DNA of 53,629 nucleotides from a virus. Taxonomy: Duplodnaviria > Caudoviricetes. A program made the translations under genes and the position numbers. The DNA lies in the IMG/VR virus record IMGVR_UViG_3300033741_000039, positions 1 through 53,629 of that record. One strand, written 5' to 3'. Of this stretch, positions 1 to 53,629 are shown in pieces; within the stretch, counting starts at the first letter, position 1, and every line of letters begins with the position of its first letter. The notes beneath the pieces were generated by a model. The model did no database searches, was not told the DNA's origin, and saw nothing but the letters and a program-made list of their open reading frames with translations.

Positions 1-126
1 CCACACGATGGTCCCCCCGCTCACCCCCTCCAGGTCCTCCATCATAGCACTGACTCTGTTGCTCTTGATGCTGTGTACATCGCCATCCTCGTCGGCTATG
101 TGTCCACACACGATCTGCTGCAGGCG
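1..126. repeat. Terminal direct repeat, left copy (probable circular-assembly overlap)
   Basis: Bases 1-126 are identical to 53502-53627; the helicase ORF continues in frame across the join. Confidence 0.95.
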
Positions 127-1026
127 CGTGAGCGTCACGATGGCCTGTGTGCTACTCGTGAACCCTCCCTCAAACTCCACAAAGGCATTGTCCCGCATCG
201 CCCGGTACATCCGCGACTGCTCGTCCGTCAGGTCGACGTTCAGCATCCGGTACACCTTGGGCGGGAGGTCCATGCAGTCCTCCTTCAGTACGCGGTAGCT
301 GTGCGGCTCGACCGCCTCCTTCAGCTCAGGGATATTCCTGTATCCCACGACGACGTTGACCCGCCTGCCTCCGAATATCTTCTGTTGCTGTACCGCGTAC
401 CTCTTCTTGAAGTTGAAGTAGGAGCGGTGCCCGAGCGACCCGGACTGCAGGAACTCGAACTGGGAGAACAGGTCGAGGGGCGAGTTGGGCGTGGGGGAGC
501 CTGTGGCTATCCGCCTGTAGACTGCGACTGTAGCCAGCTTGACGAGGTTCTTCGTCCGGGTCGCGGTGGGGTTCTTGGCCACGGTGGACTCGTCCAGCGA
601 CTGGTACGACCTGCCCGACTGACAGAACCTCTCCACGAACTTGAGCGCGACACCCTTAGTTGACAGCGCCTCGACGTTGACGATGAGAATGCGGAGTCGG
701 GTGTCGTCCGGCTCGACCAGCTGGGCCAGCTCGCGCTGCTGCTCCCTGTTGCCTCCACCCGACACCCACGGCAGCGCGTGGTACGGGATACCCATGTGGA
801 CCTGCAGCTCAGCGATCCAGTTGAGGTACACACCCTTCGGCGCGTATATGACGGCGCAGTCGATCAGGCCCTCACACCACAGTCGGGACATCTCGTCGAT
901 GATCACCTTGGTCTTGCCAGTCCCCATCTCCATGAAGAAGGCGAAGAAGGCCCGCCCAGCGGCGCGTCGCTCCGCCTCGGTCTGGTGCCTGTAGGGTTTG
1001 GTCTTGTAGCTGAAACTGGGTCGCAT
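1..1026 (-). CDS. SNF2/SF2 helicase, N-terminal part (continues at 53501->53091; ~478 aa total)
   Basis: Hand translation: AGGAG + ATG at 1026, MRPSFSYKTKPYRHQ, Walker A EMGTGKT, LDEST (DExx), ATGSPTPNSPLDLFSQFEFL; missing from the ORF track because the window edge splits it. Confidence 0.9.
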   Translation of the reverse strand, partial: MRPSFSYKTKPYRHQTEAERRAAGRAFFAFFMEMGTGKTKVIIDEMSRLWCEGLIDCAVIYAPKGVYLNWIAELQVHMGIPYHALPWVSGGGNREQQRELAQLVEPDDTRLRILIVNVEALSTKGVALKFVERFCQSGRSYQSLDESTVAKNPTATRTKNLVKLATVAVYRRIATGSPTPNSPLDLFSQFEFLQSGSLGHRSYFNFKKRYAVQQQKIFGGRRVNVVVGYRNIPELKEAVEPHSYRVLKEDCMDLPPKVYRMLNVDLTDEQSRMYRAMRDNAFVEFEGGFTSSTQAIVTLTRLQQIVCGHIADEDGDVHSIKSNRVSAMMEDLEGVSGGTIVW

Positions 1027-1119
1027 GGTCACTCCTGTCTGTCGTTCGGCCCAAGGGTACGCCGGGAGCCGGGGGGAGGGTAGTCTGTACACGTGCGAGT
1101 GTTGAGAGGTACTCAGATA

Positions 1120-1285
1120 CCTCCCCCGCACACACGACCTAAAAAGCAATAAAAATCCAATAATGATTTTACGACCTGTTTTCAGTGGGTTGCGGAGTTG
1201 ATTATTGGATTATTGCTTATTGCCTCGCGCGACCCGCGCGCAGGCCTCCGCCGGCGCACGTGTAAATCCAATAATCCAATAAAAA
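1120..1285. repeat. AT-rich iteron-like region A (AATCCAATAA / AAGCAATAA repeats)
   Basis: Several direct and inverted CAATAA-core copies in a non-coding AT-rich island; related to 26500-26945. Confidence 0.75.
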
Positions 1286-1342
1286 TGGGCCGACCTCGTG
1301 AGAGGCCGACCCTAGGTTTAGTGAGGCAGTGACAGAGAACTC

Positions 1343-1371
1343 AGTATAGGGGCGGAGCGGGGCAAACAAAA
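1343..1371 (-). promoter_or_regulatory. Putative leftward promoter TTTTGT-N17-TATACT (helicase)
   Basis: Same hexamers and spacing as 26391-26419; upstream of a leftward gene. Confidence 0.55.
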
Positions 1372-1426
1372 GCACTAACAGTTTCGGTCACTTGCACGTT
1401 TGTTTGAATAATCGTCACGAGGGGAC

Positions 1427-1455
1427 TTTACATATGTTGAGGGTTGTCCTACATT
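1427..1455 (+). promoter_or_regulatory. Sigma70-like early promoter TTTACA-N17-TACATT
   Basis: Near-consensus -35/-10 with a 17-nt spacer upstream of the early operon. Confidence 0.65.
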
Positions 1456-1685
1456 GATTGTACGAGAGACGGACGGGACGGGTAGCCCAAGCATAACTAC
1501 CCCGCTGACAGCGAAGCCCGAATACGGGCACGGTAGTTGGTACGACGCGGCCCGCAGGCTTGAACCACGCGCGTTATACCCAACTGGTTTCCGGCAGCGT
1601 ACACCCAAAGGTTAGTAACCACAGGCCCCGCACGCGTTAGCGTAGCGGGGCCTCTGACTACAAACCCCAACCAAGGAGTAACACC

Positions 1686-1982
1686 ATGGACAACTACAAA
1701 ACACGCAGCGACGACGAAGCCAAGACCCTTGAGCTTCTGGACGGATTTGAGGCCACAGACGACCTCTACTCAACAATATTCTGTGTCAAGAAGGCCATCC
1801 GGGCGATGTGGGCGCTGCAGTTTACTCCGGAGAGGGTCAACAAAGTTGGGTCTGCTCTCGGAGGTCTCACAGAACTGGACGCCGGAAACGTCCAAACCGT
1901 ACTGACCCGGATGACTCGGGCCAAGGTTCTCCGCAGTAAGGTGTCTCGAGCAGGCAAGCGAGTCTACGAAGTGAATTTTTAA
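1686..1982 (+). CDS. Hypothetical early protein (possible winged helix)
   Basis: Strong RBS AAGGAG; basic C-terminus LTRMTRAKVLRSKVSRAGKRVYEV. Confidence 0.7.
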   Translation: MDNYKTRSDDEAKTLELLDGFEATDDLYSTIFCVKKAIRAMWALQFTPERVNKVGSALGGLTELDAGNVQTVLTRMTRAKVLRSKVSRAGKRVYEVNF

Positions 1983-2045
1983 GTCGAAACCGCCCAGCTC
2001 GGGCGGTCTGCGGGATGAGCCCTACCCGCACTGATGTGACAGGGC
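1983..2045 (+). ncRNA. Type II hammerhead ribozyme 1 (pseudoknotted, A9U core variant)
   Basis: GUC-GAAA, stem III ACCGCCC/GGGCGGU, C17 at 2008, stem I UGCGGG/CCCGCA, CUGAUGU-GAC; loop-I GCCCU complementary to 3' AGGGC. Confidence 0.85.
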
Positions 2046-2068
2046 AACACACAACTGGAGTAATACCA

Positions 2069-2707
2069 ATGACCTACACAATCACACAGATGGCCACCCT
2101 CTACAACGAGATCACCGGGTCGGACGTCAAGAAGTTCGCCAGCAAGTCCAAGGGTGAGGCCCGCCTCGACGCAGCCTGCGACGAGCGCAACCTTGTCTGG
2201 GCCGACGCCGAGGACGGGTCGGGCCTCTACACATACACCCCTGACGACGTCATGGACGACATGCCTCCCGCTGACTCGGACGCCTGGAACGAGAACAGGG
2301 TTGCTAAGGAGTACACCCCTGAGGAGCTGGAGCTACTCGGCCAGTTCGGTCTCGGTGCTGACCACGACACAGCCCTGTGCCCACACTGCGGCATCAACCA
2401 CTGCGACAACGGACACAGCATGCACGGCGACGGTGCTGAGCATGAGACCTCCAAGTGGGCCTGCCTGGGCTGCAACGGTGAGTGGGGCGAGCTGATCGCC
2501 AAGCGAGCCACCAGCACTCGGGCTGTCCACGCCGACGACGCCAAGATCACCAAGGTCGAGGCCAACCCCAAGCGTGAGGGGACTAAGGCCCACGCCCGCT
2601 TCGCTCTCTACAAGAAGGGCATGACGGTCCGTGAGGCCCTGGAGGCCGGGGTCACCCGCCAGGACCTGCGCTGGGACACCGAGCGCAAGCTGGTCGTCAT
2701 CGGCTAA
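2069..2707 (+). CDS. Early protein with Zn ribbon and C-terminal NPK..G(T/S)K domain (paralog 1)
   Basis: RBS GGAG; CPHC..CLGC; C-terminal NPKREGTKAHARFALYKKGMTV domain shared with the 4759 and 19681 genes. Confidence 0.85.
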   Translation: MTYTITQMATLYNEITGSDVKKFASKSKGEARLDAACDERNLVWADAEDGSGLYTYTPDDVMDDMPPADSDAWNENRVAKEYTPEELELLGQFGLGADHDTALCPHCGINHCDNGHSMHGDGAEHETSKWACLGCNGEWGELIAKRATSTRAVHADDAKITKVEANPKREGTKAHARFALYKKGMTVREALEAGVTRQDLRWDTERKLVVIG

Positions 2708-2774
2708 CTCAACTTTCCACCGCCCCGCTGTCCACGTAGGGTAGCGGGGCCAACCCACAGAATGGAGTAAGACC

Positions 2775-2987
2775 ATGACCGAACGACAGGCGGCGATAAT
2801 CGCCAACAAGGTATACAAGCTGATCAACTGCTACCCGATGCGGGTTGACCCTGCCCTGGCGAGCAGGACTCTTGACAAGCTGTCCCCGTACATGAGCGAG
2901 GCACAGATTTGCAAGCACCTGGACTTCCTGAACGCCTACGGAGACATGGTGCGCCTCTGGGCACACCAGCAGGAGGCGGCGTCATGA
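2775..2987 (+). CDS. Hypothetical protein
   Basis: GGAGTAA RBS; operon context. Confidence 0.7.
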   Translation: MTERQAAIIANKVYKLINCYPMRVDPALASRTLDKLSPYMSEAQICKHLDFLNAYGDMVRLWAHQQEAAS

Positions 2988-3238
2988 GCCACCAGCAGAT
3001 GAGCGACGAGCATCAGGCGCTGGCCCAGGAGGCCATAGCCAGGAAGTTCAGCGAGCACTCAACCAACTACAGCGTCGGGGTCATCTCGCAGGAGCTGAGC
3101 CACACGCACAGGTCGGGAGTGATCAGCTGGATGTCCACCGTCATCGTCACAGCCGACGGAACCCGCTACGACGTCCACCTCAGCAGGGTGGGCGAGAAGA
3201 TCATGATCACCGACATCGTCGATGACAGGTACAACTGA
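2984..3238 (+). CDS. Hypothetical protein
   Basis: AGGAGG RBS; ATGA overlap with the upstream gene. Confidence 0.7.
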   Translation: MSHQQMSDEHQALAQEAIARKFSEHSTNYSVGVISQELSHTHRSGVISWMSTVIVTADGTRYDVHLSRVGEKIMITDIVDDRYN

Positions 3239-3254
3239 ACCAAGGAGTAACACC

Positions 3255-3455
3255 ATGCCACAGATAACAGCGGGCCTTCGGGCCACAGCCGACGCGGACC
3301 AGGTGGTCCGCACCATACAGCGGACCGACCCGCTGGCCACCTGTCTCGTGAAGGGAGCCACGGTAATCTGCGACACCGAGCGCCCCGAGATAGTCATGCG
3401 CCAGTATCCTGCGCTGGTCAGCCTCAGCCGCTGGGTCAACATCAACATGGGCTAG
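3255..3455 (+). CDS. Hypothetical protein
   Basis: AACCAAGGAGTAACACCATG leader. Confidence 0.65.
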   Translation: MPQITAGLRATADADQVVRTIQRTDPLATCLVKGATVICDTERPEIVMRQYPALVSLSRWVNINMG

Positions 3456-3479
3456 TCGCCCGAAACTAGGAGAACAGAC

Positions 3480-4436
3480 ATGCCACTCGACAACGCAAAC
3501 AACTACCTGGAGATGATCCAGGCCCACGGCTTCCAGGCCCCCAAGAAGGACCTGGGACTCGCAACCAGCAAGACGGTCTTCCCGATAGCGGAGATGGCCC
3601 TCGGGGCACACGCTGCCTCAGACAACCCTGAGCTCCCACATGCAGCAGATGCGTGTGCCACCTCAGAGACCCACAAGGCCATAGTCAGGACGGACACCAA
3701 CGAGTTCGTCGGGGTCGTCTCGTCCAAGTACAGGCCTCTCCGCAACGAGGACCTGTTCGGGACAATCGAGGCGGCGCTGAACGAGGCCATCCCGGAGGAG
3801 ATGTTCCGGGACGTACAGGTCCGCGACCGCGTCAGCGGAGGCGGCTCCTGGAGCCAGCGTGAGTATGTGCTGCCCGCCTATGCTGAGGAGCTGAAGAACT
3901 CCCAGTTCGAGACGCGGGTCGGCCTGCGCATCATCGCCTGGAACAGCTATGACGGGTCGGCCTCGGCGGGCCTCATGACTGGCCTCATCGACTTCTACTG
4001 CACCAACGGCATGATCGTCGGGAACCAGATCACCCGTGAGCTGAAGCGCCACAGCACCCGACTGACCCCGGAGGACTTCCTCCCCCGCCTAACCAAGAAC
4101 CTCAGCACCATCCACGAGGAGATTGACGGCATCCGGGGGATGATGCACACCCCTCTGAACTCGGACGCTGCGCTCGAGTTTCTCGAGAAGAACCTGTCGG
4201 CCAAGCGAGCGGCTGAGATGTTCACCCGCATGCAGCAAGAGGTTGAGGTGCGGGGGAGTAACGTGTTCGCGCTACACTCCGCGCTGACCTACTACGCCTC
4301 ACACGACAGTGAGAGCTTCGCCACCCGAGCGCCGTTGCACTCCAGCCGCACAGCCCGCATGCTGCGCGGTCGTGAGGACGAGGTACTCCGGCTGGTCCGC
4401 ACCCCTGAGTTCCAGGGTATGCTGGTGGCGGCATGA
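3480..4436 (+). CDS. DUF932-family protein
   Basis: AIVRTDTNEFVGVVSSKYRPLRN, NSYDGS, FYCTNGMI, KRHS motifs typical of the family. Confidence 0.8.
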   Translation: MPLDNANNYLEMIQAHGFQAPKKDLGLATSKTVFPIAEMALGAHAASDNPELPHAADACATSETHKAIVRTDTNEFVGVVSSKYRPLRNEDLFGTIEAALNEAIPEEMFRDVQVRDRVSGGGSWSQREYVLPAYAEELKNSQFETRVGLRIIAWNSYDGSASAGLMTGLIDFYCTNGMIVGNQITRELKRHSTRLTPEDFLPRLTKNLSTIHEEIDGIRGMMHTPLNSDAALEFLEKNLSAKRAAEMFTRMQQEVEVRGSNVFALHSALTYYASHDSESFATRAPLHSSRTARMLRGREDEVLRLVRTPEFQGMLVAA

Positions 4437-4675
4437 GCTCCGCATACTATGTCCTCAGTAAGGCAATGGGTGTCAGGTTCCTGAATGTTGACAGGAACAC
4501 AGGAGCACTCTACTGGACCTCATCTCCGCACGGAGCCACACTGTTCACCAGCAAGGCAATGGCAGAGGAGACAGTTAAGTCTGGGTTGGGCCACCTGATA
4601 GAGTACAAGGTGTGTCCAACTCGTGTCTGGGAACCCAATGTGATCAGAGGCAACCAGATACAGAGAATCACATAG
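4433..4675 (+). CDS. Hypothetical protein
   Basis: ATGA overlap; stop codon abuts hammerhead 2. Confidence 0.65.
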   Translation: MSSAYYVLSKAMGVRFLNVDRNTGALYWTSSPHGATLFTSKAMAEETVKSGLGHLIEYKVCPTRVWEPNVIRGNQIQRIT

Positions 4676-4738
4676 TCGAAACACCCACCCCGGTGGGTGT
4701 CTGCGGGATGAGCCCTACCCGCACTGATGTGACAGGGC
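4675..4738 (+). ncRNA. Type II hammerhead ribozyme 2 (pseudoknotted, A9U core variant)
   Basis: Same core, stem I and pseudoknot as copy 1; stem III differs but is fully paired (ACACCCAC/GUGGGUGU); C17 at 4701. Confidence 0.85.
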
Positions 4739-4758
4739 AACAACCAAGGAGTAACACC

Positions 4759-5253
4759 ATGCTGACCAAGTACCAACCGAACTTTGCCTCGCTGACACCA
4801 GACGAGGCGGCTCACGCTGCTGCGTCACTCTGCCGTGCAACTGACCTTGTCATCGACACAGAGTCTGGCATCAGCGGGAACCAGCTGTTCAGTATCTGCG
4901 GTGCGGAGAATATCGGACAGGCACAGGTCGTGATGTCCATGGCCCGCGACCCCAGCCACATTGGCGTCGTCTGCCTCGAGAAGCTGGTGGGCACAACGCT
5001 GCGTCGCCCCGAGCCAGAGAAGAAGGCCCGAGCGCCCCGCGCCGCGCCCAAGGGTAACGCGGTCCGTCGCTCTGACCCTCGGGTCATCGCTCACGTCGAG
5101 CCGAACCCCAAGAAGTCGGGCAGCAAGTCCCACGCCCGGTACGAGCACTATCAGGTCGGCATGACTGTCGACCAGTTCGTGGCTGCGGGTGGGAGCATGG
5201 ACGACGTGCGCCACGACGTGGGTAAGGGTTTCGTCCGGCTGGAGGAGAAGTGA
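4759..5253 (+). CDS. Early protein with C-terminal NPK..G(T/S)K domain (paralog 2)
   Basis: AAGGAG RBS; NPKKSGSKSHARYEHYQVGMTV. Confidence 0.85.
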   Translation: MLTKYQPNFASLTPDEAAHAAASLCRATDLVIDTESGISGNQLFSICGAENIGQAQVVMSMARDPSHIGVVCLEKLVGTTLRRPEPEKKARAPRAAPKGNAVRRSDPRVIAHVEPNPKKSGSKSHARYEHYQVGMTVDQFVAAGGSMDDVRHDVGKGFVRLEEK

Positions 5254-5552
5254 TGGTACATGTCAAGAACACCGATCTAGCGGAGAGGGCTGTGATGACA
5301 GCTGAGGACCCAGACACAGGGATGCCTCTATCAACCTCCATGCTGTACCGGGTCTGCAAGAGGGACCCAATGCTCTTTGGTGAGGCAACGCGCATCATGA
5401 AGGAGATGTACCTCGCTGGGCAGCGCAACCTCTGCCCGAGCCACTTCGACCACGGCAGCTGGGACTGCGATGACAGCCCCACCGGGAAGTGCGTCTACAC
5501 CAGCGACCACGACGACTGCATATTCTGCCACGGACCAGAGGAGAGAAAGTGA
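5250..5552 (+). CDS. Hypothetical Cys-rich protein
   Basis: C-terminal WDCDDSPTGKCVY..CIFCHGPEERK; operon coupling. Confidence 0.7.
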   Translation: MMVHVKNTDLAERAVMTAEDPDTGMPLSTSMLYRVCKRDPMLFGEATRIMKEMYLAGQRNLCPSHFDHGSWDCDDSPTGKCVYTSDHDDCIFCHGPEERK

Positions 5553-5636
5553 TGCGCGACGCCATGGAGTTCGTGGTGGGGGTGGCGTTCGTCGCCATCC
5601 TCATCGGTGGTGTAATGGTCCTGGGAGGGTAGGGCG

Positions 5637-5894
5637 GTGGCACTGAGACTTGAGAAGAGCGATCAGGTGCGGGTCAACACTGACCCACAGCGCCGCTGCT
5701 ACAATGGTGCTCACTTCAGCTCGGAGCTGAGGTGGTCCGCCTGGGATTGGCTGCAGTGGGACGTGCCTCCGGACAGGGTGGCCGAGCGCCTGAAGTTCTG
5801 GCGCGATCTGAGTACCTACTCCGTCAGCGTTGGAGGCAGTCCATCTAGATATCGTGTCAGAGACACAGAGACAGACAAGGAGATTGAGTCATGA
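5637..5894 (+). CDS. Hypothetical protein
   Basis: ORF track; operon context. Confidence 0.6.
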   Translation: MALRLEKSDQVRVNTDPQRRCYNGAHFSSELRWSAWDWLQWDVPPDRVAERLKFWRDLSTYSVSVGGSPSRYRVRDTETDKEIES

Positions 5895-6139
5895 TCAACA
5901 CAGACACACTGCAGTGCCATCAGGTTCCAGCCCGCGAGGTCGAGCCAACCGAGGAGATGATCGACTGGCTGAACTCGGCCCCGATCGAGTGGTCCGGCGA
6001 CGAGGAGGGTGTCGTCCTCCACCAGTGCGAGGACGTACTGGCATCGCCCGGCGACTGGATATGCTGCTCACAGGGCGACTGGTTCGTCCTGCGGGCGGGT
6101 GACATGGAGGCGATCCAGAACCATCCCAGGCTACCCTAG
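5891..6139 (+). CDS. Hypothetical protein
   Basis: AAGGAG RBS, ATGA overlap; last gene before the strand switch. Confidence 0.65.
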   Translation: MINTDTLQCHQVPAREVEPTEEMIDWLNSAPIEWSGDEEGVVLHQCEDVLASPGDWICCSQGDWFVLRAGDMEAIQNHPRLP

Positions 6140-6254
6140 CCGCGCCGCGCCCCTCTCAGGGACTCCAGCGCGTCCTCCAGCTCCTCCAGTACGTGACAGA
6201 CGTACTTAGGCCCGCCCCGGTATCCCCGGCGCGGGCCTTTTCTCGTCTGGAGAG

Positions 6255-6689
6255 TCAGTTTCCTGTCAGATGGTTCCGGACTGCGTCCCAGTCCCAGCGG
6301 GCGGGGCCTCCAGGCCAGACGCCCAGGAAGTCCACTCCCTCGGCTCTCAGACCGCCCTCGCGGAGCAGGGGCGCGAGCCTGCCCTCCGCCAGCCACAGCT
6401 CGTCGACCGCTGCTCCCCGGCGCGGGCCACCCTCGTTCTGCCTTCGGATGGCGATGAATGTGCGCCCGCCTCTCATGTACCTCGTCTGGTGCCATGACGA
6501 CTGCTCCGCTGTGAGTCCAACCGCCCACGCCTCGGTCCACTTGAACTCGACCCACAGCTCAATCCCGCCAGCGATGCAGGCGTTGCTGTCCGGGATGCCC
6601 TGCCCGGTGCCTCCTGTCTCGATGGCCTGCCAGTGTACCCCGCGCCGCAGCTTGTCGTGGAACAGGGGGCGCAGCCCTCCGTCGATCAC
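6255..6689 (-). CDS. VRR-NUC / PD-(D/E)xK nuclease (Holliday junction resolvase-like)
   Basis: GIPD..WVEFK..LTAEQSSWH..RGG motif set. Confidence 0.8.
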   Translation of the reverse strand: MIDGGLRPLFHDKLRRGVHWQAIETGGTGQGIPDSNACIAGGIELWVEFKWTEAWAVGLTAEQSSWHQTRYMRGGRTFIAIRRQNEGGPRRGAAVDELWLAEGRLAPLLREGGLRAEGVDFLGVWPGGPARWDWDAVRNHLTGN

Positions 6690-6853
6690 AGCAGTTCCTC
6701 CAGTGTGTCAGCCGCGCGGCGCAGGCGCACCACCCACGCACGAACGCCGCTCTGCGACAGCCCACGACGAGCGACGAGGCAGAGAGCTAGACCGCCCGCT
6801 ACCCCGGCCAGCGACCGCGAGGCCCGCTCCAGTACGTCCTCAGTTCGGCTCAT
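6686..6853 (-). CDS. Hypothetical protein
   Basis: Coupled by TGATG/GTGA overlaps. Confidence 0.5.
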   Translation of the reverse strand: MSRTEDVLERASRSLAGVAGGLALCLVARRGLSQSGVRAWVVRLRRAADTLEELL

Positions 6854-7062
6854 CAGTGCATCCCCGCTCGATCTACCTCGAACCGCTCCGAGGTGCAGGC
6901 GGGGCAGACCCCGATGAGCAGGCACATCGCGACGAAGACCCTCAGCTCAGGCTCGCCTCCCTCACATGCCATTCGGTGGGCCAGCCTGCACGCCACCTCA
7001 GACTCCAGCCCCCGCTCCGCTGCCTCAGCCAGTATTGGGGCGTCGTGATCCAGTAGGGGCAT
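6853..7062 (-). CDS. Hypothetical protein
   Basis: Start overlaps the exonuclease stop; CPAC motif. Confidence 0.5.
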   Translation of the reverse strand: MPLLDHDAPILAEAAERGLESEVACRLAHRMACEGGEPELRVFVAMCLLIGVCPACTSERFEVDRAGMH

Positions 7063-7928
7063 CAGCGCAGCCTCCCCCGCTCCCGCAGGTGGTGGCGACA
7101 GGTGTGCTTGGTGTCCTCGTCGAAGTCCTGCCTCAGGACCCACTCCATGAACCCGCTGTCCAGGTCCACCCAGCGCTCACCATGGTTCTTCCCGAAGCGA
7201 CACTTGGTCAGGAGGGCGGGGGAGGAGGTCAGGTGGTGCAGGTGGAGGAGGGCGCGGTCGGCGTCGGCGTCGGGCAGCTCCTCCTCGAGACCAATGATGG
7301 TGCGGTCTCCCATGATGGCGTCGATCATCCAGTGTAGAATGTCTGCTGTCATGATGGCGTCGAACAGCGCCCGGTGGGGCATGCTGCCCGCCTCGGGTGG
7401 CATGGGGTGGGCCAGCCCCAGCTCGTACCACAGCGAGCCGTTGGAGTGGCTCTCTGCGCTCGGCAGGAGGTGCAGGGCGCAGCGCCACGTGCAGATGTAC
7501 GGGACAGCCTGCAGCCACTCGGGCAGGAACCCACGGTCGAACTCCGCGTTGTGGAAGACGAGGTAGTCAGGCAGGGTTGGCTCTCCACTGGTGTCGAAGA
7601 CAAGACCAGCTCCGTGGCACATCTTGCAGTCCCATTCCTCAAGATGCCCCTCGGAGATACCTGTCCCCTCACAGTCTGAGCAGAGTGAGATGGGCACCGC
7701 GTTCAGCACGTCCATCAGGGCCACGTCCGGCCCCGGCGCGGTACGCACCATGGCGTCTGTGATGTGGTGGGTGGACATCGCTCCGAAGCTGATGCTCCTC
7801 TCACCGGGGCACACGAGGCTCTGGCGCTGCGCTCCGCCACTGTGGACAGCCGCTACCTCGACGAGGGTGTCCTCTCCGTGGACCATGCCCGTTGTCTCGG
7901 TGTCCATCACTGCGTATGTCTTGGTCAT
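7062..7928 (-). CDS. DEDDh 3'-5' exonuclease (ExoX-like) with inserted DnaJ-type Zn finger
   Basis: DTETTG, FHNAEFD, HRALFDA, C-terminal FGK..G..W; insert CSDCEGTG..CKMCHGAG. Confidence 0.88.
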   Translation of the reverse strand: MTKTYAVMDTETTGMVHGEDTLVEVAAVHSGGAQRQSLVCPGERSISFGAMSTHHITDAMVRTAPGPDVALMDVLNAVPISLCSDCEGTGISEGHLEEWDCKMCHGAGLVFDTSGEPTLPDYLVFHNAEFDRGFLPEWLQAVPYICTWRCALHLLPSAESHSNGSLWYELGLAHPMPPEAGSMPHRALFDAIMTADILHWMIDAIMGDRTIIGLEEELPDADADRALLHLHHLTSSPALLTKCRFGKNHGERWVDLDSGFMEWVLRQDFDEDTKHTCRHHLRERGRLR

Positions 7929-8146
7929 GGCTTCTTCTCCTCCATCCCGAAGAACCTCGGGTCCACTGTGTGGTCGGGGTCACTGACCTGATAGCTGTGC
8001 CCGTGGCAGCACACACCTGCCCCATTGGACATAGCGATACTGCTGGACATCATATGTGTTACAAGCCATCCGTCGGGTATCTCAACCACTCTTGTCGCAG
8101 TCTTTATCCCGGAGCATCCACCCATTCTTGTGACTGTCTGTGTCAT
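7925..8146 (-). CDS. Hypothetical protein
   Basis: ATGA overlaps. Confidence 0.55.
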   Translation of the reverse strand: MTQTVTRMGGCSGIKTATRVVEIPDGWLVTHMMSSSIAMSNGAGVCCHGHSYQVSDPDHTVDPRFFGMEEKKP

Positions 8147-26499: not shown

Positions 26500-26945
26500 C
26501 ATTATTGCTTTTTAGCTGGGTTTATAAAAGCAATAGTAAAAGCAATAAGTTGTTTTCCTCTAATAACAACGGGTTACGGGGCCTCTTATTGCTTTTAAAT
26601 AAATCCAATAATAAAACAATAGGGTGTATTCCCCTGCAATAACAGTGAGTTACAGGGTGCCTCGCGCGCGTATATCACACGCGTCGGCGGAGGCGTGTGC
26701 GCATGGACTCGAGGAAAAATCCAATAATCCAATAATGATTGCTGTAAGTATCCGTAATTAAAGAGGAATAGACTTATTGCTTTTAAAAGGTCTAAAATAA
26801 ATCCAATAATCGGGGCTGGAACCTACTGTTATTGCTCAGGAATTACTTATTGGATTTTTATTGCTTTTAGTTCGGAGATCTTTGGTAGGTGCTGCAGGTG
26901 TAAGGATCGGAGGAAATAGATCAGAGGTCGTGTGTGCGGGGGAGG
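26500..26945. repeat. AT-rich iteron region B (origin or packaging-site candidate)
   Basis: Many TTATTGCTTTTA / AATCCAATAA copies in both orientations at the divergence point of the two arms. Confidence 0.75.
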
Positions 26946-51432: not shown

Positions 51433-51686
51433 TCTGGTTCCTGGTCGGCTTCGCCTGCGCGTGGATCATCCAGGCGTACAGGCTGCACAGGCTTGAGGAG
51501 ATGCGCCACCACCAGATCGTTGGTATCTACGAGGGCTACGGCGCACCCGACGCGGCAGGTCGGGTGGGCTGGTATCGGGACAACTCTGGTGGGAGTCCCT
51601 TCACAGACCCAGACAGCAAGTGGGGTGAGGCGGGGCAGTCCACCACAATAGAGACAACCTACAACCAAGAAATGGAGAGACCATGA
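51429..51686 (+). CDS. Small membrane-anchored hypothetical protein
   Basis: GTGA overlap; hydrophobic N-terminus. Confidence 0.5.
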
Positions 51687-52996
51687 GCAACTTTGTATTC
51701 AAGCACGCCAACGGAGCCAAGATCAAGGACGGGGACGACATCATCAGGATCACGACCCTTGCCGACGGTTCACAGAGGGTCGAGGTCTATGTCGAGACAT
51801 CGGGCAAGTACTCCGAGATCACCGCGCATCTTGTTGAGCCTGCGCCCGAGCCGGACCCCGAGCCTGCGCCCGAGCCGGACCCCGAGCCTGCGCCCGAGCC
51901 GGACCCCGAGCCTGCGCCCGAGCCTGCGCCGGACCCCGAGCCTGCGCCCGAGCCTGCGCCGGACCCCGAGCCTGCGCCCGAGCCTACCCCGACGCCAACT
52001 CCCGGCCCTGCTGCGGACGTCAACGGACCTGCGGAGCTGGCTGCGGCACTGGCATCCGGCGCAGGAGTGTTCACGCTGGCGGGTGGCAACTATGGCAGCA
52101 TGCCCAACCTGCCAGACGGGACGACGCTGCGCGCGGCTGACCCGGCGAACAGACCAACCTTCTCGGCCAGTTCGATCAACGGACGGGACGGTCTCACACT
52201 GGACGGACTGCACCTCAAGCACGTCTATGCCACTGGGGATGGCGACGGCAAGAACATCCTCTACCTTCCCAACATCACGAACTTCGTCATGAGGAACTGC
52301 GTGATCGAGGGAGACCGCAATCCTAATGGTTCCTGCATTGGTCGCGGCGTTCAGGTAGCCGGGGGCAACAACATCCTCCTCGAGAACAACACGATCCACA
52401 CCATCTGGAAGGCCATCGGCATCACTGCGGATAACGTGGTGCTGCGCGGCAACGAGATACACACGTTCCGCAGCGACGGCATCAACACCGGCACGACCAC
52501 CAACGTTGTGATGGAGGGCAATTATCTGCACGATGCCGATACGGTGGAGTTTGCAGGCGATCACCGCGACAGCATCCAGTTGATGGGAACGGCAGACGGA
52601 ATGGTCCTGCGCGATAACCTCATCGACATTGGGGATGGCCTCTACTCGCAGTCGATCTGGTCGGATGCCAAGAACTTCATGGACAACGTGACCGTGGCCG
52701 GGAACGTCATCATCAACTCGCACACCAACGGCATTGCGCTACACAATGTCGGCAAGATCGACGTGACGGGTAACGTGATGGTCTGGCTACCGCGCAGCGA
52801 TGCAGCTAACCAAGGCATCCAGACGCCCAAGGTCAACATCAGCTCCGGCTTCGCCACGATCAGAGGCAACACGGTGCCGGGCATCACCAGCCCAAAGGGG
52901 CAGGACGGGCAGAACACAATCCAGAACGGAGACCCTGATGCCACGCGGGCTGCGGCTCGCGCAGACCCCCGCTGGTCACACTTCTTCGGAAGCTAG
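51683..52996 (+). CDS. Right-handed beta-helix (pectate-lyase-like) protein with Pro/Glu linker
   Basis: Repeating NN.I/GN.I beta-helix rungs; HRDSIQ; LAGGNYG cap. Confidence 0.8.
51836..51985 (+). repeat. Coding tandem repeat (EPAPEPDP)n
   Basis: GAGCCTGCGCCCGAGCCGGACCCC 24-nt units with 30-nt variants. Confidence 0.9.
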
Positions 52997-53090: not shown

Positions 53091-53629
53091 CTACACGAGC
53101 CATGCACGCGGGTCCTCGCCCTGAATCGACGCAGCGACATTGATCTTCGCCCTCAGGGCGGCGATCAGCCTCTCGTCCACCGTCCCGATAGCTCGGAGGT
53201 CGGTGTAGGTGCACTTCTCTGTCTGACCACCCCTGTGCGGCCTGTCCTCCGACTGGACCCGGTGCTCGAGGTTGAAGCTGTTGGACATGTAGTAGGTGTA
53301 CGTCCCCTTGAGCCACGTGTTGCCGTAGCCACCGCTCTGCTGTGTGCTGACCATGAACCTGCAGCGGTCGCTGTTGATGAAGCGCCTCGCGTCGTCCTCA
53401 CGCGTGTTGGTGTTGCCACCATGGTACTCCGCAACCGACTCCTCTCCGTAGGCAGACCGCAGCGCCTCAACGGTAGCAGCAATCTCGTGCCTCCACCGGG
53501 ACCACACGATGGTCCCCCCGCTCACCCCCTCCAGGTCCTCCATCATAGCACTGACTCTGTTGCTCTTGATGCTGTGTACATCGCCATCCTCGTCGGCTAT
53601 GTGTCCACACACGATCTGCTGCAGGCGTT
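53091..53629 (-). CDS. SNF2/SF2 helicase, C-terminal part
   Basis: TIVWSRW, YHGG, SGGYGNT, QSEDRPHRGGQ (motif VI). Confidence 0.88.
   Translation of the reverse strand, partial: RLQQIVCGHIADEDGDVHSIKSNRVSAMMEDLEGVSGGTIVWSRWRHEIAATVEALRSAYGEESVAEYHGGNTNTREDDARRFINSDRCRFMVSTQQSGGYGNTWLKGTYTYYMSNSFNLEHRVQSEDRPHRGGQTEKCTYTDLRAIGTVDERLIAALRAKINVAASIQGEDPRAWLV
53502..53627. repeat. Terminal direct repeat, right copy
   Basis: Identical to 1-126. Confidence 0.95.

What the first reader, a model, noticed from the sequence alone, without database searches (positions are those of the whole stretch)
4675..4738. Second hammerhead copy with a covarying stem III
Seen: the core, stem I, loop and pseudoknot are identical to copy 1, but stem III has a different sequence that is still perfectly paired (ACACCCAC-cccg-GUGGGUGU versus ACCGCCC-agcuc-GGGCGGU). 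It again starts at the upstream stop codon and ends just before the RBS. Compensatory change argues for selection on RNA structure rather than a DNA repeat, and U9 is shared by both copies, so it is unlikely to be decay or a sequencing error.
Basis: seen in the sequence. Interest (0 to 1): 0.8.

Follow-up and report, generated by a model that had tools for sequence, protein, structure and literature searches.

The report
Second phage hammerhead ribozyme copy
This is a second copy of a well-known self-cutting RNA (a type II hammerhead ribozyme) lying between two genes of an uncultured brine phage, and it is an ordinary family member except for one unusual core base whose effect on cutting has not been tested.

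Summary
Window 4674-4741 (+) matches Rfam Hammerhead_II at 33.4 bits, below the gathering score of 37. Copy 1 (1982-2048) scores 38.1.

The two copies share the 5' core and a 44-nt exact 3' block: stem I, loop, core, stem II and pseudoknot tail. They differ only in stem III, which is perfectly paired in both, with three two-sided changes. Copy 2 runs from the TAG stop at 4673-4675 to 9 nt before the GGAG of the next gene.

The same layout (stop codon, ribozyme, ribosome-binding site) holds for most of 147 related phage hammerheads. Stems I and III and the pseudoknot covary strongly in 141 sequences. So this is a genuine member of a family known in phages since 2011.

The A9U core change is real: four brine runs show no variant. 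But both U9s lie in one copied block, so they are not independent. Well-formed U9 hammerheads recur elsewhere: 3 viral and 12 distinct metagenomic sequences. Well-formed variants at catalytic G5 and G12 are about as common in viral contigs.

Activity is therefore likely but unproven. This is a new member of a known kind, of modest interest.

The parts
4433..4675 (+). Upstream 80-aa ORF. Its TAG stop (4673-4675) shares G4675 with the ribozyme. Its start overlaps the stop of the DUF932 gene (ATGA at 4433-4436).
   Evidence: No Pfam or PHROG match.
4674..4741 (+). Hammerhead type II, copy 2 (extent of the Rfam RF02276 match).
   Evidence: 33.4 bits, model positions 1-66 of 66.
4675..4677 (+). Stem II 5' strand (GUC). 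It pairs with GAC 4731-4733.
4678..4680 (+). Core G12-A13-A14.
4681..4700 (+). Stem III hairpin: 8 pairs, loop CCCG. This is the only part that differs from copy 1.
4701..4701 (+). C17. The predicted cleavage is 3' of this base.
   Evidence: alignment to the model (GUC triplet at 4699-4701).
4702..4723 (+). Stem I hairpin: 6 pairs and a 10-nt loop. Loop bases 4712-4716 (GCCCU) form the 5' side of the pseudoknot.
4724..4730 (+). Core C3-U4-G5-A6-U7-G8-U9. Position 9 (4730) is U instead of the consensus A.
4731..4733 (+). Stem II 3' strand (GAC).
4734..4738 (+). Pseudoknot 3' side (AGGGC), which pairs with 4712-4716.
   Evidence: This helix covaries across the family. In Roseobacter phage CRP-212 both sides change together.
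4741..4761 (+). 21-nt leader, Shine-Dalgarno and ATG cassette. It is repeated at 1668-1688 and 3237-3257. GGAG lies at 4748-4751 and the ATG at 4759.
   Evidence: (family D8).
4759..5253 (+). Downstream 164-aa ORF, with no family match.
1982..2048 (+). Hammerhead type II, copy 1 (C17 = C2008, U9 = 2037). It lies between ORF 1686-1982 (TAA stop) and ORF 2069-2707.
2009..4701 (+). Predicted 2693-nt middle RNA fragment released if both ribozymes cut. It carries ORFs 2069-2707, 2775-2987, 2984-3238, 3255-3455, 3480-4436 (DUF932) and 4433-4675.
   Evidence: Inference.

Best explanation
Copy 2 is a genuine type II hammerhead ribozyme with a pseudoknot between loop I and the 3' tail. It is one of two in a rightward, probably early, multi-gene transcript of an uncultured tailed phage from brine.

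Inferred mechanism. The RNA folds into the three-helix junction and cuts itself after C4701.
- The upstream piece keeps its stop codon and ends in the GC-rich stem III hairpin, with a 2',3'-cyclic phosphate.
- The downstream piece starts with a 5'-OH at the foot of the stem I hairpin, 46 nt before the GGAG of the next gene.
- Only the 3-pair stem II links the two pieces, so they separate.

With copy 1, this would cut the operon RNA into three independently stable and independently translated segments (gene 1, genes 2-7, and gene 8 onward).

Stem III only has to pair, which is why its sequence is free to differ between the copies. The A9U core change probably lowers the cutting rate rather than abolishing it.

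Shown here: family membership by sequence and structure, conservation of pairing, and placement between genes. Inferred: cleavage itself, its rate, and the effect on RNA stability.
For: - Rfam Hammerhead_II matches on the + strand only. Copy 1 scores 38.1 bits and copy 2 scores 33.4, both across the full model.
- 12 of 13 consensus core bases are present, with a GUC cleavage triplet and A15.1-U16.1.
- The minimum-energy fold gives stems I, II and III.
- A core descriptor finds 2 matches against 0.05 expected by chance.
- Stem III has three two-sided changes between the copies and perfect pairing in both.
- Family covariation on 141 sequences: 92.9% of cells are paired, 601 cells have two-sided changes, 0 of 500 shuffles reach this, and slid controls pair at 27-42%. 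The pseudoknot helix, which I did not filter on, is 81% paired with two-sided changes in all 5 pairs.
- Roseobacter phage CRP-212 has two such ribozymes flanking gp55. One lies right after a DUF932 homologue (28% identity, E = 2e-27). Its pseudoknot covaries with the window's.
- The layout is family-wide. Of 147 hammerheads, 118 abut a stop codon, and 103 of those close an open frame of at least 40 codons. 124 of 147 are followed by a Shine-Dalgarno sequence and a start codon within 60 nt.
- U9 is present without variants in contigs of 4 brine runs dated 2019-2024.
- Well-formed U9 hammerheads occur in 3 of 10 viral loci and in 13 of 93 metagenome matches (12 distinct sequences). Well-formed G9 or C9 occur in 0 of 8 viral loci.
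- Metagenome contig L213 has two slightly diverged copies, both with U9.
- Literature: Perreault et al. 2011 (PMC3088659; abstract, found passages and section 8 read) report type II hammerheads with this pseudoknot. They also report multiple ribozymes flanking genes in prophages, with cleavage of about 2-kb polycistronic constructs.
Against: - Position 9 is A in 147 of 149 sampled relatives. The only two U9s are the window's own copies.
- A9 is one of the conserved core bases. I recall, without a call, that base changes there reduce cleavage in minimal hammerheads.
- Well-paired hammerheads with changes at catalytic G5 (3 of 5 loci) or G12 (2 of 4 loci) are about as common in IMG/VR as U9 ones (3 of 10). 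So intact helices plus a core change do not prove activity.
- All 65 U9 pattern matches in 185,579 species genomes were chance matches.
- Copy 2 is below Rfam's gathering score.
- Folding energy alone is not unusual, with a z-score of -1.23.
- The nearest cultured phages by capsid protein (phiPSA1, MR13, RHph_N28_2) have no hammerhead, 0 of 3.
- 20 loci with DUF932 relatives have none at gathering score.
- No orthologous copy from a close relative could be found, so conservation of this particular copy over time is untested.
Confidence: 0.6

Rival explanations
1. Catalytically dead hammerhead relic. The A9U change, spread to both copies by duplication or gene conversion of the 44-nt block, has switched off cleavage. 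The element persists either because too little time has passed or because its hairpins still serve as intercistronic structure, for example as stabilisers or RNase sites, like the non-hammerhead hairpins in other gaps of the same operon.
For: - A9 is near-invariant: 147 of 149.
- Both U9s lie in one exact repeat, so a single mutation is enough to explain them.
- Variants at catalytic G5 and G12 with intact helices are as frequent as U9 in IMG/VR.
- GC-rich hairpins without a hammerhead core precede the ribosome-binding sites at about 1626-1654 and 2722-2751.
- Metagenome contig L258 mixes one A9 copy and one U9 copy.
Against: - All helices and the 5-pair pseudoknot are perfect in both copies.
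- U9 recurs in at least 15 other distinct, well-paired hammerheads, while G9 and C9 were found in none.
- L213 keeps U9 in two copies that have since diverged.
- The sequence is unchanged in runs from 2019 to 2024.
Confidence: 0.3
2. A DNA-level repeat, such as a recombination or protein-binding site, or a mobile intergenic cassette. On this view the hammerhead-like RNA fold is incidental.
For: - The 44-nt exact direct repeat.
- The 21-nt leader and ribosome-binding-site cassette also occurs at two sites that have no ribozyme (family D8).
- Module mixing between copies in other contigs.
Against: - The variable part keeps base pairing through two-sided changes.
- The match is strand-specific and spans the full Rfam model.
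- Pairing, not sequence, is what is conserved in 141 relatives.
Confidence: 0.04
3. A chance resemblance to the hammerhead motif in GC-rich intergenic DNA.
For: Copy 2 is below Rfam's gathering score, and its folding energy z-score is only -1.23.
Against: - 2 descriptor matches against 0.05 expected.
- E = 2.8e-05 in the local scan.
- A second copy above the gathering score.
- The same architecture in CRP-212.
Confidence: 0.01

Closest known systems
Rfam RF02276, Hammerhead ribozyme type II (Perreault et al. 2011, PMC3088659)
   Same: Open stem II, hairpin-closed stems I and III, a GUC cleavage triplet, the CUGAUG and GAAA cores, and a pseudoknot between loop I and the tail just 3' of stem II. 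The match spans the full model. The pseudoknot is described in the paper's passages.
   Different: U instead of A at core position 9. Copy 2 scores 33.4 bits, below the gathering score of 37. No position-9 variant is named in the paper's section on core variation. Its Figure 5, Figures S6 and S7 and Dataset S1 were not visible to me.
Two unannotated type II hammerheads of Roseobacter phage CRP-212 (MZ892988.1), flanking gp55
   Same: Two copies flank a small gene block. Each starts at the upstream TAG and is followed by CUGGAG and an ATG. One lies downstream of a DUF932 gene. Stem I is the same (UGCGGG/CCCGCA) in one copy. The only database DNA match to the window's element is here, at 81.9% identity.
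   Different: Both CRP-212 copies have the canonical A9. Their pseudoknot is GGCCU/AGGCC rather than GCCCU/AGGGC. The flanked genes other than DUF932 are unrelated.
Tandem hammerheads flanking genes in prophages (Agrobacterium tumefaciens ardA locus, Azorhizobium caulinodans, Clostridium scindens; Perreault et al. 2011)
   Same: Several ribozymes in one polycistronic transcript bracket single genes or short gene blocks. Those constructs were shown to cut in vitro, and the A. tumefaciens set also in E. coli (passages read).
   Different: Those examples were tested for cleavage and this one is not. No ardA homologue was found here.
Synthetic ribozyme insulators placed between promoter or upstream gene and the ribosome-binding site (recalled from memory, no call)
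   Same: By inference it works like these. Self-cleavage gives the downstream message a defined 5' end with a hairpin, uncoupling it from upstream sequence.
   Different: Those are engineered and use a different hammerhead topology. The natural function here is untested.

Membership tests
Hammerhead ribozyme, type II (RF02276) | Three helices around the core in type II topology: stem II open, stems I and III closed by loops. | tested here: met
   Alignment to the model, minimum-energy fold and direct reading.
Hammerhead ribozyme, type II (RF02276) | Conserved core C3 U4 G5 A6 N7 G8 A9 / G12 A13 A14 / A15.1-U16.1 / H17. | tested here: inconclusive
   All positions are met except A9, which is U at 4730. 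A9 occurs in 147 of 149 sampled relatives. Some U9 relatives score above Rfam's gathering score, for example L170 at 53.5 bits.
Hammerhead ribozyme, type II (RF02276) | Tertiary contact: a pseudoknot of at least 4 pairs between loop I and the tail 3' of stem II. | tested here: met
   5 pairs, 4712-4716 with 4734-4738. The helix covaries across the family.
Hammerhead ribozyme, type II (RF02276) | Score at or above Rfam's curated gathering threshold of 37 bits. | tested here: not met
   Copy 2 scores 33.4 bits and copy 1 scores 38.1 bits. The difference lies in the stem III and loop alignment.
Hammerhead ribozyme, type II (RF02276) | Base pairing conserved through compensatory change in homologues. 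| tested here: met
   92.9% of cells paired, 601 cells with two-sided changes, 0 of 500 shuffles as high, on 141 sequences. Caveat: rows were pre-filtered for at least 3 outer pairs in stem III and at least 4 in stem I. The pseudoknot was not filtered.
Hammerhead ribozyme, type II (RF02276) | Site-specific self-cleavage 3' of position 17, giving 2',3'-cyclic phosphate and 5'-OH ends. | not testable with these tools
   No RNA run is listed for this sequence. A cleavage assay is needed.

The most novel reading that the evidence does not exclude
A9U is not decay. It is a recurrent, selected natural variant of the type II hammerhead core that keeps activity, possibly at a slower or ion-dependent rate, giving partial or conditional processing of phage operon RNA. 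On this view, the two U9 copies in this brine phage, the two in metagenome contig L213 and about a dozen other lineages would widen the accepted hammerhead consensus at a position treated as invariant.
Probability: 0.35. Interest if true: 0.5.

Novelty: new member of a known kind. Interest (0 to 1): 0.3.

Why it matters
Type II hammerheads between phage genes have been known since 2011, but their purpose is still open. The 2019 review PMC6765202 (passage read) says processing of polycistronic transcripts is only suggested.

This locus is a clean natural example of two ribozymes bracketing a six-gene block. Each is packed exactly between a stop codon and a ribosome-binding site, and that packing turns out to be the rule in 147 phage examples. 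The arrangement suggests a testable design: both cleavage products end in protective hairpins.

The A9U change, if active, would show that a core position treated as invariant tolerates U in nature. If it is inactive, the locus shows how a single lesion can spread between ribozyme copies by copying of a short block.

Tried and rejected
**Searches for close relatives**
- Megablast of window 1-8000 against 50,697 phage records found no match.
- Exact search of the 40-nt and then the 31-nt shared block in IMG/VR found 0 matches each. So no sibling with A9 or U9 was found.
- Relatives of the DUF932 protein in IMG/VR are at most 35% identical (24 loci). 20 of these 24 loci were scanned with Rfam at gathering score and gave 0 matches.
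- A loose regex over all 24 loci gave 0 hits. That regex recovered only 2 of 4 positive controls, so this negative is weak.
- Capsid relatives phiPSA1, MR13 and RHph_N28_2: 0 of 3 have a Hammerhead_II match at E <= 0.01. The tool warned that nothing rang in its control genomes either.

**Expression**
- No RNA holder is listed for window 1500-5500.
- All four runs laid were DNA contigs, so no RNA ends could be seen.

**Is U9 specially tolerated?**
- I first read 3 credible U9 loci against 0 credible G9 or C9 loci as support.
- Controls at G5 (3 of 5 loci credible) and G12 (2 of 4 loci credible) then showed that presumably lethal changes are equally frequent.

**Literature on position 9**
- Searches 'hammerhead' + 'A9U' (4 papers) and 'hammerhead' + 'A9G' (6 papers) gave nothing on hammerhead position 9, judged by the listings and one passage.
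- The five-term search returned 1 paper (listing only), which was not relevant.
- Passages of the eLife 2023 mutagenesis paper (PMC9901934) do not give position-9 values in the text.
- So I found no printed report of a natural A9U hammerhead, but I cannot say there is none.
Perreault 2011's Figures S6 and S7 and Dataset S1 may list such variants.

**Other readings and tools**
- An alternative register that would restore a GA at positions 8-9 was rejected by reading the sequence. It would put C opposite C at the first stem II pair.
- Terminator reading: the scan of 1-7000 lists no terminator-like site at either ribozyme.
- Protein families of the flanking ORFs: nothing beyond DUF932 and an RNase_T-like exonuclease on the other strand.

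Full report
**What the window is**

The window is a 53,629-base IMG/VR virus record. It encodes a portal protein, a head maturation protease and a major head protein of tailed phages. Its DNA is held, word for word, by contigs of several brine metagenome runs dated 2019-2024. A 126-nt exact repeat joins its two ends (family D2).

**The observation**

Rfam's Hammerhead_II model (RF02276) matches twice, both times on the + strand and over all 66 model positions.
- 1982-2048: 38.1 bits, above the gathering score of 37.
- 4674-4741: 33.4 bits, below it. E = 0.005 for the whole window and 2.8e-05 for the local scan.

- The 5' AGUCGAAAC is identical in both copies.
- So is a 44-nt 3' block (2006-2049 = 4699-4742, D6). 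It holds the GUC triplet, stem I, its 10-nt loop, the CUGAUGU core, the GAC strand of stem II and the AGGGC tail.
- All differences fall in stem III, which has 7 pairs with a 5-nt loop in copy 1 and 8 pairs with a 4-nt loop in copy 2. Pairs 3, 4 and 7 are changed on both sides.
- Loop GCCCU (4712-4716) is complementary to tail AGGGC (4734-4738).
- C17 is C4701.
- The TAG of ORF 4433-4675 shares its G with the first stem II base. GGAG lies at 4748-4751 and the ATG at 4759.

A core descriptor finds these two sites and no others in the window, against 0.05 expected by chance. The minimum-energy fold shows the three stems, but the energy is not unusual (z = -1.23).

**Relatives**

No close relative of the phage was found. 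The single DNA match of the element in 50,697 phage records is Roseobacter phage CRP-212. That record carries two unannotated Hammerhead_II matches (38.4 and 32.1 bits) on either side of gp55. Each begins at the upstream TAG and is followed by CUGGAG and an ATG.

One CRP-212 copy sits directly after gp56, a homologue of the window's DUF932 protein (28% identity, E = 2e-27). Both CRP-212 copies have A at position 9. Their pseudoknot reads GGCCU/AGGCC where the window has GCCCU/AGGGC, so both sides have changed together.

After removing loci that duplicate the window or CRP-212, there were 149 matches:
- 138 have A before the first G.
- 80 have UA before it, giving a UAG that overlaps the ribozyme.
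- 33 have a complete stop codon just before it.

With flanks required, 118 of 147 abut a stop codon. Of those, 103 close an open frame of at least 40 codons. 124 of 147 are followed by a Shine-Dalgarno sequence plus a start codon within 60 nt, at a median of 11.5 nt.

**Covariation**

I aligned 141 distinct sequences. These were 140 that passed my filter of at least 3 outer pairs in stem III and at least 4 in stem I, plus L132 added by hand. I did not count how many matches the filter dropped.

On the hammerhead structure including the pseudoknot:
- 92.9% of cells form standard pairs, against 68.3% in shuffles and 27-42% when partners are slid.
- 601 cells have changes on both sides, against 179 in shuffles.
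- 0 of 500 shuffles reach the observed values.

The figures for stems I and III lean on my filter. The pseudoknot was not filtered and is 81% paired, with two-sided changes in all five pairs. The three stem II pairs never vary because the search pattern fixed them.

**How the two copies came to differ**

Among 67 within-contig pairs of hammerheads (28 multi-copy contigs out of 126), the pattern goes both ways.
- 4 pairs share stem I plus tail (at least 90% identity) but differ in stem III (below 70%). The window is one of these.
- 3 pairs show the reverse.

So copies exchange modules at the conserved core junctions. The window's stem III difference may therefore be a swapped hairpin rather than a series of compensatory point changes. 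Either way, only paired versions are seen.

**The U9 question**

Position 9 is A in 147 of the 149 sampled relatives. The only U9s are the window's two copies.

It is not an assembly error. Contigs of four runs cover both copies with no other letter, and the shared 44-nt block appears as a separate unitig at about double depth in two runs (40.4 against 17.4-20.9, and 210 against 107-113). Two of those runs may be the source of the record. Because the block is an exact repeat, the two U9s count as one event.

U9-specific scans gave:
- 10 viral loci, of which 3 are well-formed hammerheads (L129, L131, L132).
- 93 metagenome matches, of which 13 are well-formed (12 distinct sequences). 10 of the 13 have at least 4 complementary pseudoknot bases.
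- 65 matches in species genomes, none well-formed.

Rfam scores 6 of these U9 elements above its gathering score, for example L170 at 53.5 bits. Contig L213 has two slightly different copies, both U9. L258 has one U9 copy and one A9 copy.

Controls in IMG/VR:
- G9 or C9: 0 of 8 loci well-formed.
- G5 changed: 3 of 5 loci well-formed.
- G12 changed: 2 of 4 loci well-formed, and the two are related to each other.

G5 and G12 are catalytically essential by established knowledge of the family. So well-paired hammerheads with presumably lethal changes are as frequent as U9 ones. U9 is therefore a recurrent variant, but the data do not show that it is tolerated.

**Mechanism**

If active, the RNA cuts after C4701. 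Only the 3-pair stem II joins the products, so they should part.
- The upstream product keeps its stop codon, 26 nt from a 3' end that is locked in the 8-pair stem III hairpin.
- The downstream product begins with a 5'-OH at the base of stem I and carries its ribosome-binding site about 46 nt further on.

With copy 1 (cut after C2008), a 2,693-nt middle fragment holding six ORFs would be released. Protection of both ends by hairpins is my inference, and it would explain why the type II topology suits intercistronic sites. A ribosome terminating at UAG 4673-4675 would cover the 5' strand of the ribozyme, so folding and termination should alternate. This too is inference.

The region 1150-1680 looks like a divergent control region. 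It has a promoter-like site at 1427-1455 and repeated AAATCCAATAAT motifs, consistent with one rightward transcript through both ribozymes.

**Comparison with what is known**

Perreault et al. 2011 (PMC3088659; abstract, found passages and section 8 read) described type II hammerheads, this pseudoknot, and multiple ribozymes flanking genes in prophages with demonstrated cleavage. Their text on core variants names C3-G8 to U3-A8, A6C, insertions after A6 and A13, U15.1-A16.1 and U10.1-U11.1, but no position-9 change. Their figures and supplements were not visible to me.

A 2019 review (PMC6765202, one passage read) states that processing of polycistronic transcripts is suggested but needs more work.

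The locus is thus a new member of a known kind. The only unusual trait is A9U.

**Verdict**

| Question | Result |
|---|---|
| Observation | confirmed |
| Interpretation | partly supported |
| Real hammerhead-family element | about 0.95 |
| Biologically meaningful self-cleavage | about 0.6 |
| Dead relic | about 0.3 |
| Interest | 0.3 |

Noticed in passing
window 1-126 and 53502-53627: An exact 126-nt direct repeat joins the two ends of the record (family D2). The genome is probably complete (circular or terminally redundant, about 53.5 kb), although it is classed as linear and 83% complete.
   Followed up: no
window 1668-1688, 3237-3257, 4741-4761: A 21-nt leader, Shine-Dalgarno and ATG cassette occurs three times (100%, 95% and 100% identity, family D8). 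Only the third copy follows a hammerhead. The copy at 3237 suggests that the true start of ORF 3222-3455 is the ATG at 3255.
   Followed up: partly
window about 1626-1654 and 2722-2751: GC-rich hairpins without a hammerhead core lie just before the ribosome-binding sites of ORF 1686-1982 and ORF 2775-2987 in the same operon. They may be other RNA-end or processing structures.
   Followed up: no
window 1152-1282 and 26600-26817: AAATCCAATAAT-type repeats cluster in two intergenic regions (family D4). They may be operator or promoter elements. The first cluster lies upstream of the operon that holds both ribozymes.
   Followed up: no
window 51812-52027: A tandem repeat with a 12-nt period (12 overlapping copies of an 84-nt unit) lies inside ORF 51683-52996 (family D1). 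It would give a proline- and glutamate-rich repeat in the protein.
   Followed up: no
window 3455-3470: The stop codon of ORF 3255-3455 is followed by a string resembling the hammerhead 5' half (UAGUCG...GAAAC) with three extra bases. No Rfam match lies there, so it is probably chance.
   Followed up: no
L004 2289-2356 and 3039-3116 (Roseobacter phage CRP-212, MZ892988.1): Two type II hammerheads flank gp55 and are not annotated in the record. One overlaps the annotated start region of gp54.
   Followed up: yes
147 hammerheads in loci L007-L124, L004 and the window: Family-wide packing: 118 of 147 abut a stop codon and 124 of 147 are followed by a Shine-Dalgarno sequence plus a start codon within 60 nt. 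I did not see this tight stop-codon overlap stated in the passages I read.
   Followed up: partly
L329, L330, L331 (G5 changed); L334, L335 (G12 changed): These are well-paired type II hammerheads in viral contigs, with an intact pseudoknot in several, that carry substitutions at catalytic G5 or G12. They could be dead copies, assembly errors or elements retained for structure.
   Followed up: no
L023 8401-11327: One viral contig carries seven type II hammerheads within about 3 kb. It is an extreme case of ribozymes bracketing single small genes.
   Followed up: no
L102, L022, L213, the window (shared stem I, different stem III); L121, L085 and others (the reverse): Hammerhead copies within one phage exchange stem I/pseudoknot and stem III modules at the conserved core junctions.
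   Followed up: partly
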